The notes beneath the pieces are model-generated. The model had not been told where the DNA came from, did not search any database, and saw only the letters and a list, made by a program, of their open reading frames with translations. From assembly GCA_964640635.1 (NCBI GenBank), contig CAZXFD010000001.1, positions 96,163-160,162 of the forward strand: 64,000 nt of DNA. The letters run 5' to 3'. This document shows, one piece after another, positions 51,050 to 54,192 of this stretch (the first letter of the stretch is position 1; the number at the start of each line of letters is the position of its first letter). Origin of the DNA: an uncultured Gammaproteobacteria bacterium (GTDB taxonomy: Bacteria; Patescibacteriota; Patescibacteriia; UBA1558; S5-K13). Position numbers and translations under genes: made by a program.

Positions 51050-51451
51050 ATGAACAAAATAATAACATTTACTGACGGTGGTTCGAGAGGCAATCCAGGG
51101 CCTGCTGCAATAGGCGGTGTTTTATATGATGAAAATAAAAATCAAATTGACTCATTTAAAGAATGTATTGGAAAAACCACCAATAATCAAGCAGAATATC
51201 GTGCACTTCTTAAGGCACTAGAAATTGCAAAAAAACATAAAGCAGAAATAGTAGAGTGTTTCTTGGATAGTGAGCTTGTTGTAAAGCAAATGAAAAGAGA
51301 ATATAAGGTAAAAGATAAAGGATTGGCCATAATTTTTGTACAAATTTGGAATATTGTAATTGGTTTTAAAAAAATTAGCTTTCATCATATACCACGTGAA
51401 AAAAATCAAGAAGCCGATGCGCTTGTTAATGAGGCACTAGATAATGTTTAG
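51050..51451 (+). CDS. rnhA: Ribonuclease HI
   Basis: TDGGSRGNPGPAAIGGVL, catalytic DEDD pattern, ~133 aa. Confidence 0.85.
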   Translation: MNKIITFTDGGSRGNPGPAAIGGVLYDENKNQIDSFKECIGKTTNNQAEYRALLKALEIAKKHKAEIVECFLDSELVVKQMKREYKVKDKGLAIIFVQIWNIVIGFKKISFHHIPREKNQEADALVNEALDNV

Positions 51452-51501
51452 GATTTAGAGTTTAGTGGTTAGTATTTAGAGCTTATTAAAGATATTAAAA
51501 T

Positions 51502-51530
51502 AAAAAACCGATTTATTGATTCGGTTTTTA
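51502..51530 (+). terminator. Rho-independent terminator of rnhA
   Basis: AACCGATTTATTGATTCGGTT hairpin followed by TTTTT. Confidence 0.7.
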
Positions 51531-51540
51531 GATAAAATTA

Positions 51541-52912
51541 AAAGACCTCAACTGGATTGGATGGGTCTTTTTAAAATTTTCCAGAAGTCCTAAGGAGTCT
51601 AACGACGTGGCGGGCTGCACCTTTCGGTCGCGACTAAGCTTATTGTCGTTTAGAGTCCAAAAGGACTTCTGGATGGTCTTATCTGGGAATACTCTATCTA
51701 GAGGCATATTTCCTCGGCGTGAGGTTCCCAGAGACCTATGGTTTCTTTTATTAACCCCTCTAGTCAATTAGACTGCGGGGGTCGTTTCCTGAAGTCTCAA
51801 GGGGGCTTGTAAGCAATTTGCGTAAGCGAGGTGCGAATTCATCTATACGCTTATCGATTCAAGCCCCAAAGAGAACGGGTATTCAATTCACATTGGGTTC
51901 GGAGGACCCATTGGCCTTGGTCTGCTCTTTGCTGACACAGGCCTGACTTTTTTAAAGTCTTGGTCCGTTTGATCCAATATTGGACCAATGTGAACTGATT
52001 GAATTAGGGCGCCTTCGCAATACGATTCTCTAGCTCTTATCGGAGGTTTTAGTCCGATGAGCAATTGAGCGAAGGCGCCAGGGACAAGGGTCGCGTGTGG
52101 CCAAAACTGTGTTCGCACCAAGCTAGGTACGAAAGGGCGCTCTTAAGCATAAACCCTTAACAAATTTTTGACTAACACGCCGATCGGGGCCTATCTTACG
52201 GGACCGGTTTCGTTCATGGGTATTACCGTTATAAAAAACGGAGTTACCATGTCACAGCCGGCAAATTGGTAGGCGCCGTGGGTTTTTTCTGGAGAGCCCC
52301 CATAGCTATTTCTGAGTGCTATGGGGCGGGTTCATTAAGAACCTGCATGCACATATTATAGCGCTTTTCTGAGTCCCAACAAATTGTTGGGGGTGCGCTT
52401 TGTGCGTATGGGGGCGCCAGGGGTGTCTAATGATCTTCGCTAAAAACTCGAGAGTATTGAATAGACGCGAAGACAACAAGACGGGCGACAAAAGACAGTA
52501 CTCATGCTTCTGCAAACTCCCTTATGCAATGTGCTTTTGGGGGAAAGTGGAGTATATGAGGTATCTTTTGTCAAAAAAATTTTTCTATTCGGAATTTCCC
52601 CCAAGTCTCGGGGGCTTTATTTTATCTGAGACTAGGGCTGTCCACGTATGTTCATGATTACCTCCTTAAAGTTTTTTGATCAAGGTATACCGGCGGCGGG
52701 GTTACGGGCAGATCTTTAATTCCGGATGGTTGGCCATGGGTCTTCCTCGTGCATTCATGATACCTCCAGGGGTATTATGGGGCGGGTTATTCCTCATCTA
52801 CCAATCAACACCTATTCAATAATTGAATTTTGTTGATTTCGGATGAAGAATTAATCGCAGGATGATCACGACTCCTTAGTCAACTAATATTTCTGACAGA
52901 GGGAGTCTTTTT
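51541..52912 (+). ncRNA. Candidate large (~1.37 kb) structured non-coding RNA, unclassified; strand tentative
   Basis: GC clearly above the ~28% flanks and no ORF longer than 90 aa on either strand. Dense nested hairpins (51581-51690; 52008-52081 GGCGCCTTCGC/GCGAAGGCGCC; 52296-52331; 52362-52401). Internal repeated motifs. Three +-strand hairpin + U-run terminator-like ends (52262-52290, 52597-52625, 52868-52912). Sits between the rnhA terminator and the holB promoter. Confidence 0.4.
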
Positions 52913-53181
52913 TTCTTTATAACAGCAAGAAAGCTGTAGAAGAGTGGCTAAAATGGTAATTTGTTTATTTTCAAGGCACCAAAGATTAGCTCCTCTTAAA
53001 GAGTCTTCTACATTTTTCTTGCTGTTAATTTGAAGCGAATTGTTAATGTACAATAGAGCACTATAGCATGTCATAGAGTTCTTGTCAATAGTAGTTATCC
53101 ACAGCTCTAAATTGGTCTAGGATTAGATAGTTCCTGAACTTGGGGTAGTAATTTAACTCAAAATTTGCTATTCTTAAAAAT

Positions 53182-54192
53182 ATGGAAAAAGAAGATAGCC
53201 AAAATATGAATTGGCCTATTTTAGGACATAAAAACATAGTCAAGTATCTAGAAAGGCTTATAGAAAAACAAGACTTTTTGCATACATATTTATTTACTGG
53301 ACCTCGTGATATTGGCAAGAAAACAATGGCCGACCTTTTTGTGAAATCTATATTTTGCTCTGACAAAAACTCTATTCCATGTAATCATTGCAATGATTGT
53401 ATTGAAATATCCAAGTTTTCTCACCCAGATTATATATTTGTAGACAGAGAAGAGGGAAAGAAAAATATTTCAATAGAACAAGTAAGGGATTTTCAAAGTA
53501 GAATGTCTAGAACTCCCATGAGATCAAAATACAAAATTGGCCTCATAAACAACGCCGACTCACTCAACAAAGAATCTGCCAATGCACTACTTAAGACAAT
53601 AGAGGAACCAAGTAAGAGTTCTATGGTGATATTGATGGCAGAAAAAATAGAAAATATTTTGCCAACTATTAGATCTCGTAGTCAAAATATTATTTTTAAC
53701 AATGTTTCAGATAGTGAAATTTATGAACACTTAAAATCTCTTGGATCTAGTGGTGATATGGCGCAGGAGTTATCAAAGTTTGCTGGAGGATCTCCGGGGA
53801 TAGCACTCCATTATTTTAAGAATCAAGAAGATTGGAATGCTCAGAAGATTTTTTTGAATCAAATGCTTGAAATAATAGATAATCCTTTGAATGAAAAATT
53901 TTTTTGGGTAGAGAGCATGGTAAAAAAAATTGGAAGTAAAGATAATCAGTATTTTTATTTTGAAAATTTGTTGGATAATTATCTAAAGATTGTTAGAGAT
54001 TTAATTATCTTTAAGATAGATCCCGAGCTTGACCTTATACATAATTTTTTACAAAGCCCTGTTGCTAAGATTTCTAGAAAATATAGCTATGATGAACTTA
54101 TTTCTTTTTATAAAAATATTTTAAGTGCAAAAAAAATGATTTTTCAAAATGTAAATCCTAGGATTATTTTGGAAAATATTTTAATAATATAA
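53182..54192 (+). CDS. holB: DNA polymerase III delta' subunit
   Basis: HTYLFTGPRDIGKKTMA (degenerate Walker A) and Cys-rich zinc module CNHCNDC. AAA+ clamp-loader fold and length. Confidence 0.7.
   Translation: MEKEDSQNMNWPILGHKNIVKYLERLIEKQDFLHTYLFTGPRDIGKKTMADLFVKSIFCSDKNSIPCNHCNDCIEISKFSHPDYIFVDREEGKKNISIEQVRDFQSRMSRTPMRSKYKIGLINNADSLNKESANALLKTIEEPSKSSMVILMAEKIENILPTIRSRSQNIIFNNVSDSEIYEHLKSLGSSGDMAQELSKFAGGSPGIALHYFKNQEDWNAQKIFLNQMLEIIDNPLNEKFFWVESMVKKIGSKDNQYFYFENLLDNYLKIVRDLIIFKIDPELDLIHNFLQSPVAKISRKYSYDELISFYKNILSAKKMIFQNVNPRIILENILII

What the first reader, a model, noticed from the sequence alone, without database searches (positions are those of the whole stretch)
51541..52912. 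About 1.4 kb of GC-rich, ORF-free, hairpin-dense sequence between rnhA and holB: a candidate giant structured ncRNA of unknown class
This stretch stands out from a ~28% GC genome with 90% coding density: roughly 45-50% GC and no ORF longer than 90 aa on either strand. It is packed with long local helices. Examples are the ~25-bp imperfect hairpin CCAGAAGTCCTAAGGAGTCTAACGACG...CGTCGTTTAGAGTCCAAAAGGACTTCTGG (51581-51690), GGCGCCTTCGC...GCGAAGGCGCC (52008-52081), CCCCATAGC/GCTATGGGG (52296-52331) and CCCAACAA/TTGTTGGG (52372-52390). Motifs recur internally: TATGGGG(G)CG three times (52321, 52406, 52776), AAGTCTC(A)AGGGGGCTT twice (51793, 52600) and TTCTGAGT twice. Three hairpin + U-tract elements on the + strand (ending about 52290, 52625 and 52912) suggest +-strand transcription ending by ~52912. 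The rnhA terminator lies just upstream. The remaining intergenic DNA up to holB (52913-53181) is ordinary AT-rich sequence. I could not match the rRNA, tRNA, tmRNA, RNase P, SRP or group I/II intron hallmarks that I checked by eye. In size and ornateness it resembles GOLLD, ROOL or OLE-type large bacterial ncRNAs, but it may be a new class.
Basis: seen in the sequence. Interest (0 to 1): 0.85.

Follow-up and report, generated by a model that had tools for sequence, protein, structure and literature searches.

The report
Modular structured noncoding RNA island in CPR bacteria
A 1.4-kb GC-rich, gene-free stretch in a tiny-genome Komeilibacteria (CPR) bacterium is a conserved, heavily folded non-coding RNA locus that matches no known RNA family, with fixed ends but an interior that is swapped and reshuffled even between close relatives.

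Summary
Window 51541-52912 is the only sustained GC-rich stretch in 64 kb (46% vs 30.5%), has no real ORF, and folds far better than shuffled controls (z -5 to -11). It is not a pseudogene. W-vs-relative substitutions show no 3-periodicity (p=0.37; flanking genes p<1e-19), and six-frame Pfam finds nothing. It is under selection: about 87% identity to Komeilibacteria S5_K13, where synonymous sites are 60% identical. Its helices covary (hairpin H1: 14/36 pairs doubly compensated; core junction: 7/30). Rfam 15 finds nothing, even at E<=10, in six homologous loci.

New findings: the island is an insertion between rnhA and holB, seen only in a narrow Komeilibacteria clade (six genomes or contigs). 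All six share a near-consensus sigma-70 promoter on the MINUS strand, a 108-nt hairpin, a terminal hairpin (H1) and a bidirectional terminator. The interior is mosaic: modules are gained, lost, duplicated and incongruent with genome phylogeny, yet it stays over-structured.

Its + strand call is doubtful. Strand and function remain unresolved. My best reading is one roughly 1.0-1.5 kb minus-strand modular ncRNA, a new family.

The parts
53060..53088 (-). Near-consensus sigma-70 promoter reading leftward into the island: -35 TTGACA (53088-53083), 17-nt spacer, extended -10 TGcTATAGT (to 53060). Inferred start near 53053.
   Evidence: 11/12 match with TG. TTGACA invariant, spacer 16-17 nt with different sequence between lineages, -10 TAnnnT in 6/6 genomes.
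52920..53027 (.). Deeply conserved 108-nt hairpin (24-bp basal stem) between the promoter and the GC-rich body. It would be the 5' domain of a minus-strand transcript.
   Evidence: I1; six genomes, 36 pairs, 3 with compensatory changes, nearly invariant sequence..
52870..52914 (.). Hairpin GACTCC..GGGAGTC followed by T7 on + (terminator-like on +; an A-rich linker plus hairpin on -). It has a compensatory change in S5_K13 (GGCTCC..GGGAGCC).
52795..52845 (.). AT-rich hairpin block. It is the most conserved sequence inside the body: near-identical in W, rel96 and rel85 (one 1-nt indel, one substitution), and differs at 2-3 positions in S5_K13.
52702..52758 (-). Micro-ORF 2 (MNARGRPMANHPELKICP*) with a GGAGG Shine-Dalgarno. 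Status uncertain.
   Evidence: the first 7 codons form one of 4/674 windows with only synonymous variation. Absent from S5_K13, rel60 and L020.
52632..52655 (-). Micro-ORF 1 (MNIRGQP*; MSIRGQP* in two relatives) with a GGAGG Shine-Dalgarno (the + strand reads CCTCC at 52661-52665). Status uncertain.
   Evidence: The Arg codon is CGT, CGG or CGC in three genomes.
52597..52624 (+). Hairpin CCCCC..GGGGG + T-rich tail. Terminator-like on the + strand and conserved in S5_K13 and rel85.
52423..52574 (.). Two-hairpin module present in W and S5_K13 but absent from rel85. An example of a whole-module indel.
52086..52194 (.). 'Core' three-way-junction module with an invariant hairpin loop AAGNUA (+ sense). 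One copy each in W, S5_K13 and rel96; two paralogous copies in rel85.
   Evidence: 90% of cells paired vs 33-51% when slid; 7 doubly compensated pairs, 0/500 shuffles.
52008..52079 (.). Long hairpin GGCGCCTTCGC..GCGAAGGCGCC preceding the core junction.
   Evidence: (I14).
51683..51731 (.). Hairpin H2 with a compensatory change (CTGGGAA/TTCCCAG to CTGAGAA/TTCTCAG in S5_K13).
51580..51673 (.). Hairpin H1, the only body domain conserved across all three sub-lineages. It would be the 3' domain of a minus-strand transcript.
   Evidence: 5 genomes, 14/36 pairs doubly compensated, 89% paired vs 22-44% when slid.
51540..51580 (.). Bidirectional intrinsic terminator AAAA-GACC..GGGTC-TTTTT abutting the island. 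It reads as stem + U-run on the minus strand in 6/6 genomes.
   Evidence: In S5_K13 it is a good terminator only in the minus direction.
51504..51528 (+). rnhA's own terminator hairpin. It is flank, not part of the element.
   Evidence: (I2 arm).

Best explanation
The island is a lineage-specific gene for a long, densely folded non-coding RNA that belongs to no described family.

Most likely it is transcribed leftward, on the minus strand. Transcription would start at a strong, conserved sigma-70 promoter (53088-53060). It would run through a conserved 108-nt 5' hairpin and a roughly 0.8-1.4 kb GC-rich body made of many local stem-loop and junction domains. It would end after the conserved hairpin H1, at the intrinsic terminator that also faces rnhA (about 51570-51540).

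What is shown:
- It is non-coding.
- Sequence in retained modules is under purifying selection.
- Helices covary.
- Promoter, 5' hairpin, H1 and terminator are conserved in all six genomes.
- The body is mosaic between genomes but always over-structured.

What is inferred:
- The two long terminal hairpins cap the ends of an abundant, nuclease-resistant transcript.
- The interior domains are semi-independent functional units, either processed into domain-sized RNAs or acting as binding platforms or decoys. They can be duplicated, lost or exchanged without disturbing the rest.
- That rapid modular turnover at a fixed, strongly expressed locus is the pattern expected of an RNA interacting with fast-evolving partners such as phage, host or mobile elements, rather than of a housekeeping ribozyme.

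The exact molecular function is not established.
For: - Non-coding: no 3-periodicity in 140 collinear W-K substitutions (49/39/52, p=0.37), against p=7e-20 for holB and 2e-38 for recJ. No ORF opens under alternative codes. Six-frame Pfam gives 0 hits.
- Selection: about 87% identity in aligned columns W vs S5_K13, against 60% at 525 four-fold sites. 91% and 84% vs rel85, where four-fold sites are 54%.
- Structure: z -5 to -11. K threaded on W's MFE gives 9 double compensations vs 2.8 expected (P=0.003), and 26 broken pairs vs 47 expected (0/2000 permutations). H1 and the core junction covary. The unalignable interiors of rel60 and L020 are still z -6.4 to -8.9.
- Minus-strand transcription unit: promoter 6/6 and terminator 6/6. 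The scan finds no minus-strand terminator inside W's island. Unpaired bases are 44% A on the minus-strand fold. There are SD+ATG micro-ORFs with synonymous-type variation.
- Modularity. 96% of the MFE is retained with a pair span of <=150 nt.
- Novelty: Rfam finds nothing. No phage, plasmid or viral match. No literature found.
Against: - The strand is not settled. The + strand has a lower raw MFE in all lineages (for example -507 vs -447 kcal/mol) and about twice as many G.U pairs. Both could simply reflect the G+T richness of the + strand.
- Hairpin + T-run sites on + are conserved (51746, 52614, 52907).
- The 108-nt hairpin has two G.U positions on + that would be A.C on -.
- On the multi-genome alignments the two strands are indistinguishable.
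- There is no expression data.
- Only six genomes or contigs carry it, so covariation statistics rest on few sequences.
- rel60 shows one minus-oriented internal terminator-like site.
- The proposed function (stable modular scaffold, decoy or precursor) is inference only.
Confidence: 0.55

Rival explanations
1. Plus-strand reading. The island is a cluster of three or four separate small or medium RNAs transcribed in the same direction as rnhA and holB. Each ends at its own intrinsic terminator (~51746, ~52290, ~52624, ~52912). The minus-strand promoter makes only an antisense or regulatory transcript.
For: - Conserved hairpin + T-run sites on +, one with a compensatory stem change. L020 also has an internal + oriented hairpin + T8.
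- Lower MFE and more G.U on +.
- G.U to A-U variation in the 108-nt hairpin is compatible with +.
- Gain and loss of modules would be natural for independent genes.
Against: - No conserved + promoter was found ahead of any unit. The only + promoter-like hit (52168-52197) is not conserved in S5_K13.
- Composition-normalised z-scores are equal or better on -.
- It does not explain a consensus promoter conserved 6/6 pointing the other way, nor a second terminator after rnhA's own.
Confidence: 0.22
2. Both strands are expressed as a sense/antisense pair. A long minus-strand RNA carrying tiny translated ORFs would be controlled by plus-strand RNAs that end at the internal terminators, in the manner of type I toxin-antitoxin or excludon-like arrangements.
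For: Signals for both orientations coexist and are conserved. The + strand reads UCAUGAUUACCUCC, exactly antisense to the SD + AUG of the micro-ORFs.
Against: - The micro-ORF peptides (7-18 aa, Arg/Gly/Pro-rich) are not hydrophobic like type I toxins.
- The micro-ORFs are absent from rel60 and L020.
- No + promoters were found.
- 1.4 kb is far larger than known type I loci (my own knowledge).
Confidence: 0.12
3. Not an RNA gene. The island would be a junkyard or insertion hot spot of decayed mobile elements or foreign DNA, or a DNA-level structural element, that merely happens to be GC-rich and palindrome-rich.
For: - The locus is insertion-prone. S5_K13 has an extra 323-aa gene here. rel96 and rel85 each have a different inverted-repeat element next to the DnaA box, where their contigs break.
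- Module content is mosaic and incongruent with the genome tree.
Against: - Retained modules are far more conserved than synonymous sites.
- Substitutions are compensatory in helices.
- No other copies exist in the 64-kb window.
- No match in phage, plasmid or viral collections.
- No transposase remnant.
- GC content is held about 15-20 points above a strongly AT-biased genome in lineages whose synonymous sites are saturated.
Confidence: 0.06
4. A decayed or unusually coded protein gene (pseudogene, prophage remnant, alternative genetic code).
For: Gene callers placed ORFs here in relatives: 144 aa in rel60 and 77 aa at the end of L010.
Against: - No 3-periodicity of substitutions, and no long frame even with TGA, TAG or TAA read as sense.
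- Six-frame Pfam gives 0 hits at E<=0.1.
- The rel60 ORF has no counterpart in L020 or the W group and no PHROG hit.
Confidence: 0.02

Closest known systems
Large 'ornate' bacterial ncRNAs of unknown function (OLE, GOLLD, ROOL; Rfam families; cryo-EM structures in PMC12286853)
   Same: It is a long (about 1 kb scale), non-coding, heavily base-paired RNA candidate that stands out as a GC-rich, long intergenic region in an AT-rich genome. It is supported by covariation, has no assigned biochemical function, and appears to be an accessory rather than a universal element.
   Different: - No match to any of their covariance models, even at E<=10.
- No tRNA or prophage neighbourhood, which from my own knowledge is typical of GOLLD and ROOL.
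- No OLE-associated protein genes nearby. The neighbours are recJ, rnhA and holB.
- The architecture is dominated by local domains and varies in module content between close relatives, instead of one conserved global fold.
- It is restricted to one small Komeilibacteria clade.
Arrays with a fixed leader/promoter and variable content (CRISPR arrays, TIGR arrays of CPR bacteria and phages PMC12045711, integron cassette arrays)
   Same: There is a conserved promoter plus a conserved leader-like hairpin at one end of a fixed chromosomal locus. The interior is modular, turns over rapidly, and differs between closely related strains.
   Different: - No regular direct repeats or spacers.
- No family of repeated attC-like hairpins.
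- No cas, tas or integrase gene in the neighbourhood.
- Modules are 100-400 nt structured domains that are themselves under purifying selection.
Tandem families of paralogous regulatory small RNAs, and dual-function sRNAs that carry a small ORF (e.g. RNAIII, SgrS; own knowledge)
   Same: Paralogous structured modules sit side by side (two core-junction copies in rel85). There are hairpin + U-run elements, and possibly tiny translated ORFs inside a structured RNA.
   Different: The total size is an order of magnitude larger. Only one convincing promoter serves the whole region. No target or partner protein can be inferred.

Membership tests
GOLLD / ROOL / OLE / HEARO / raiA and all other Rfam 15 families (incl. 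RNase P, tmRNA, SRP, 6S, group I and II introns, riboswitches) | Sequence-plus-structure match to the family covariance model at or near the curated gathering score | tested here: not met
   There were 0 hits at gathering score in the whole window. At E<=10 on 51300-53300 there were only chance-level hits of <=20 bits to unrelated miRNA and sRNA models. At E<=5 there was nothing inside the islands of the homologous loci L010, L012, L013, L006, L017 and L020.
GOLLD / ROOL | Typical genomic context next to tRNA genes and/or in prophages (own knowledge of the family descriptions) | tested here: not met
   No tRNA or tmRNA in the 64-kb window. No similarity to 50,697 phage records or to IMG/VR contigs. 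Neighbours are recJ, rnhA and holB.
Group II intron | Domain V/VI ribozyme core and usually an intron-encoded reverse transcriptase ORF | tested here: not met
   No Rfam intron hit. No ORF longer than 85 aa and no Pfam hit in six frames.
CRISPR / TIGR-type guide arrays | Regularly spaced direct repeats and an adjacent effector gene | tested here: not met
   The only tandem repeat is a 7-nt AT-rich unit outside the island. Direct-repeat families are short and irregular. No cas/tas-like neighbour.
Integron cassette array | Adjacent intI integrase and recurring attC hairpins bounding the cassettes | tested here: not met
   Flanking genes are recJ, rnhA, holB, a BNR-repeat protein and frr. There is no recurrent hairpin family.
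MITE / IS-derived repeat | Multiple dispersed copies, terminal inverted repeats and target-site duplication | tested here: not met
   The island has no other copy in the 64-kb window. Module boundaries show no TIR or TSD (read). Whole genomes could not be scanned.
Protein-coding gene or pseudogene | Codon periodicity of substitutions, an open frame, or residual protein homology | tested here: not met
   Substitutions mod 3 are 49/39/52 (p=0.37), against p<1e-19 for the flanking genes. No frame opens under alternative stop sets. Pfam gives 0 hits. The rel60 ORF is not conserved.
Chromosomal replication origin | Cluster of DnaA boxes with an AT-rich unwinding element at a GC-skew switch | tested here: not met
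   There is one perfect DnaA box only. Matches with <=1 mismatch number 103 vs 106 expected in the window. GC skew is positive throughout with no inflection.
Structured non-coding RNA (generic) | Conservation above neutral rate, compensatory base changes, folding energy beyond shuffled controls, no coding signal | tested here: met
Structured non-coding RNA (generic) | Evidence of transcription and defined strand and ends | not testable with these tools
   Only sequence signals are available: a conserved minus-strand promoter and terminator against plus-strand hairpin + T-run sites. No RNA-seq was accessible.

The most novel reading that the evidence does not exclude
This is the first member of a new class of CPR-specific 'modular' long ncRNAs. 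It would be a highly expressed transcript with invariant capped ends, whose interior is a cassette-like string of independently folding RNA domains. Those domains would be exchanged, duplicated and replaced between strains on the timescale of synonymous divergence. In effect it would be an RNA-only hypervariable locus, for example an RNA decoy or immunity array used in conflicts with phage, host or competing symbionts, with tiny leader-type ORFs that couple it to the ribosome.
Probability: 0.2. Interest if true: 0.85.

Novelty: new variant of a known kind. Interest (0 to 1): 0.62.

Why it matters
CPR/Patescibacteria have tiny, streamlined, AT-rich genomes, and very little is known about their non-coding RNAs. 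This clade keeps 0.8-1.4 kb of GC-rich, densely folded, non-coding sequence under selection and drives it from a consensus promoter, which implies an important RNA-based function. It would add a new large ncRNA family to the short list of OLE, GOLLD and ROOL. Its combination of conserved ends and a rapidly reshuffled, modular interior is unusual for large structured RNAs. That combination could point to an RNA-level arms-race or regulatory system in episymbiotic bacteria. The caveat is that it has been found in only six genomes or contigs of one narrow clade, without expression data, so its general importance may be limited.

Tried and rejected
1. Known RNA family. Rfam at gathering score and at a permissive threshold, on the window and on all homologues, found nothing. 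ARAGORN found nothing.
2. Pseudogene or alternative code: rejected.
3. Phage, plasmid or virus origin. BLASTN in distant mode and four IMG/VR pattern scans found nothing.
4. Replication origin: rejected.
5. Repeated-motif or protein-sponge idea. k-mer recurrence is not above the null and is not conserved.
6. Extra copies of the core junction module in W, rel60 or L020. A covariance model found only the 5 training copies. Hits of ~11 bits with filters off fall at non-equivalent positions.
7. Strand calling by wobble asymmetry, consensus energy and tetraloops was inconclusive.
8. The 323-aa ORF next to the island in S5_K13 gave no Pfam, NCBIfam, PHROG, PADLOC or PDB hit. It looks like a secreted beta-barrel protein and seems unrelated.
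9. L021 from the metagenome scan is a chance match inside a coding region.
10. One Python run with full-length shuffles timed out and was replaced by the folding tool.
11. Literature searches for CPR or Komeilibacteria ncRNAs returned nothing relevant.
Full report
**1. Observation**

The window is a ~30.5% GC genome fragment with nearly all genes on the + strand. Between rnhA (51050-51451, PF00075) and a holB-like delta-prime gene (53182-54192, PF13177) lies a 1730-nt intergenic region. Its core, 51541-52912, is 46% GC (42-50% in 200-nt windows). It is the only long stretch above 40% GC in the 64 kb.

No ORF inside exceeds 85 aa. Both halves fold far better than dinucleotide shuffles on both strands: z -8.2/-11.4 and -5.2/-5.1. 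The claimed recurring motifs are not above chance and are mostly not conserved.

**2. Not a known RNA, not a gene, not foreign DNA**

- Rfam 15 gives no hit at gathering score in the whole window. At E<=10 in the region it gives only chance-level hits.
- The same holds for six homologous loci.
- There is no tRNA or tmRNA in the window.
- BLASTN against phage and plasmid collections and four pattern scans of IMG/VR find nothing.
- Substitutions against the closest full-length homologue show no codon periodicity (49/39/52, p=0.37). holB and recJ give p=7e-20 and 2e-38.
- No frame opens when TGA, TAG or TAA is read as sense.
- Six-frame Pfam gives nothing.
- An ORF called in one relative's island is not conserved in the next relative.

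**3. Distribution**

The flanking proteins place the organism in Patescibacteria. One relative with the island is named Candidatus Komeilibacteria bacterium S5_K13.

Relatives with HolB about 53% identical, or RnhA 72-74% identical, have rnhA abutting the next gene. In L007 the gap is 38 nt, and L018 and L019 have no island. So the island is a lineage-specific insertion.

It is present in six genomes or contigs:
- the window (W);
- S5_K13 (L017);
- a relative with HolB 96% identical (rel96 = L010 + L003);
- a relative with HolB 85% identical (rel85 = L012 + L004);
- a relative with HolB 60% identical (rel60 = L013 + L006, which overlap perfectly);
- a JGI contig, L020, roughly equidistant from the others.

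**4. Selection**

| Comparison | Identity at four-fold degenerate sites in flanking genes |
|---|---|
| W vs S5_K13 | 60% (n=525) |
| W vs rel96 | 80% |
| W vs rel85 | 54% |
| W vs rel60 | 47% |

The island aligns collinearly with S5_K13 over 51521-52665 at 83% including gaps, or about 87% in aligned columns. It aligns with rel85 at 91% (52008-52422) and 84% (52575-53093). Retained modules are therefore under strong purifying selection.

**5. Structure**

I threaded S5_K13 onto W's single-sequence MFE structure.
- 57 pairs are changed, against ~80 expected.
- 26 pairs are broken, against ~47 expected (0/2000 permutations did as well).
- There are 9 double compensations, against 2.8 expected (P=0.003).
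- The minus strand gives 6 doubles (P=0.05).
- Limiting pair span to 150 nt keeps 96% of the energy, so the fold is a string of local domains.

Hairpin H1 (51580-51673) is recognisable in five genomes spanning all three sub-lineages.
- 14/36 pairs are doubly compensated.
- 89% of cells are paired, against 22-44% when partners are slid.

A 'core' three-way junction (52086-52194) with an invariant AAGNUA loop occurs once in W, S5_K13 and rel96, and twice in rel85.
- 7/30 pairs are doubly compensated (0/500 shuffles).
- A covariance model finds no further copies.

The interiors of rel60 and L020 cannot be aligned with anything (about 45% identity). They are still 52-53% GC and fold with z -6.4 to -8.9.

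**6. Mosaicism**

- rel96 shares only the ends with W (89% and 93%) plus a 77% core piece. About 870 nt of W's middle is replaced by ~440 nt of other sequence, although synonymous sites are 80% identical.
- rel85, a much more distant genome, has W's middle at 91% but lacks H1/H2 and 52423-52574. It also has a second, divergent core module.
- S5_K13 lacks 52666-52790.

Module similarity is thus incongruent with genome relatedness. This implies either exchange between lineages or differential loss of paralogues.

**7. Conserved frame of the locus and the strand question**

The AT-rich tail is not ordinary. It contains a 108-nt hairpin (52920-53027) that is nearly invariant in six genomes, with 3 compensatory pairs.

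Next to it is a sigma-70 promoter on the minus strand: TTGACA, 17 nt, TGcTATAGT, at 53088-53060. In all six genomes the -35 is invariant, the spacer is 16-17 nt but differs in sequence between lineages, and the -10 is TAnnnT after TG.

At the other end, all six genomes keep a hairpin AAAA-GACC..GGGTC-T(n) abutting the island. On the minus strand it reads as stem + U-run. In five genomes it follows a separate hairpin that I read as rnhA's own terminator. In S5_K13 it is a good terminator only in the minus direction.

Further support for minus:
- The scan finds no minus-strand terminator inside W's island.
- Unpaired bases are 44% A on the minus-strand fold.
- There are two SD+ATG micro-ORFs: 52655-52632, M(N/S)IRGQP*, and 52758-52702, MNARGRP.... 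Their variation among orthologues is almost entirely synonymous. They exist only in the W group.

Support for plus:
- Lower raw MFE and about twice as many G.U pairs. Both are confounded by G+T richness.
- Conserved hairpin + T-run sites.
- Two G.U positions in the 108-nt hairpin.

On the multi-genome alignments the strands are indistinguishable. I lean towards the minus strand (about 55%), with plus at about 22% and both strands at about 12%.

**8. Interpretation**

What this clade maintains is a unit made of a promoter, a 5' hairpin, a long GC-rich domain-dense body, H1 and a terminator. The body's sequence and module set turn over quickly, while each retained module is constrained.

I read this as a new family of long modular ncRNA. 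The terminal hairpins probably stabilise an abundant transcript. The interior domains probably act as semi-independent units, either processed RNAs or binding and decoy platforms. The function is inferred, not shown.

It resembles OLE, GOLLD and ROOL in kind (PMC12286853). It fails their membership tests and differs in architecture and evolutionary behaviour. It resembles leader-plus-array loci (CRISPR; TIGR, PMC12045711; integrons) in layout. It lacks their repeats and their proteins.

**9. Verdict**

This is a real, selected, structured, non-coding element, and it is new to Rfam and to the searched literature. Its strand assignment, motif argument and 'single giant ornate RNA' picture are not. 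Interest is moderate to high, tempered by the narrow distribution (six sequences), the unresolved strand and the lack of expression data.

Noticed in passing
window 53095-53103: A perfect DnaA box (TTATCCACA) lies about 80 nt upstream of the holB start. It is conserved at a similar distance in W, S5_K13, rel96, rel85, rel60 and L020. It is not part of an origin: there is no box cluster and no skew switch. It may put holB (DNA polymerase III delta-prime) under DnaA control.
   Followed up: partly
window 53166-53181 (and L007 9983-10000): An extended -10-like element, TGCTATTCT, sits only ~8 nt before the holB ATG. It is conserved even in the island-less relative L007 (which reads TGGTATTCT). 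This suggests a leaderless or very short-leader holB mRNA.
   Followed up: no
L010 11507-11559 with L003 1-54; L012 2032-2060 with L004 1-20 (equivalent to window ~53093): In rel96 and rel85 the contigs break at the same point, between the minus-strand -35 and the DnaA box. The two contig ends carry ~14-22 nt inverted matches: GCACATACAT(A/T)TG(G/T)CGGTTT in rel96 and ACATAGGTAACAC in rel85. These look like two different inverted-repeat (IS/MITE-like) insertions at one hot spot, with a possible AGTT target duplication in rel96.
   Followed up: partly
L017 2410-3381 (- strand): Komeilibacteria S5_K13 has an extra 323-aa gene between rnhA and the island. It has a signal peptide and a C-terminal Phe (beta-barrel or outer-membrane-like), its own promoter and its own terminator. 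It has no hit in Pfam, NCBIfam, PHROGs, PADLOC or the PDB. That is odd for a CPR bacterium.
   Followed up: partly
window 51446-51485: A short 7-nt tandem repeat (GTTTAGA x 5.7) lies right after the rnhA stop codon, before its terminator. It is also present in rel96 (L010 10403-10445).
   Followed up: no
window 52320-52332 and 52776-52788: There is an exact 13-nt repeat, TATGGGGCGGGTT. The first copy is altered in S5_K13, whose sequence also lacks the region holding the second copy. It is probably a remnant of an internal duplication that also produced the two micro-ORF copies.
   Followed up: partly
L016 / L003 record title (CAZWVD010000013.1): The public record for the 96% relative is titled 'uncultured Gammaproteobacteria bacterium'. 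Its genes are clearly Patescibacteria-like and syntenic with the window, so the taxonomic label of that MAG is probably wrong.
   Followed up: no
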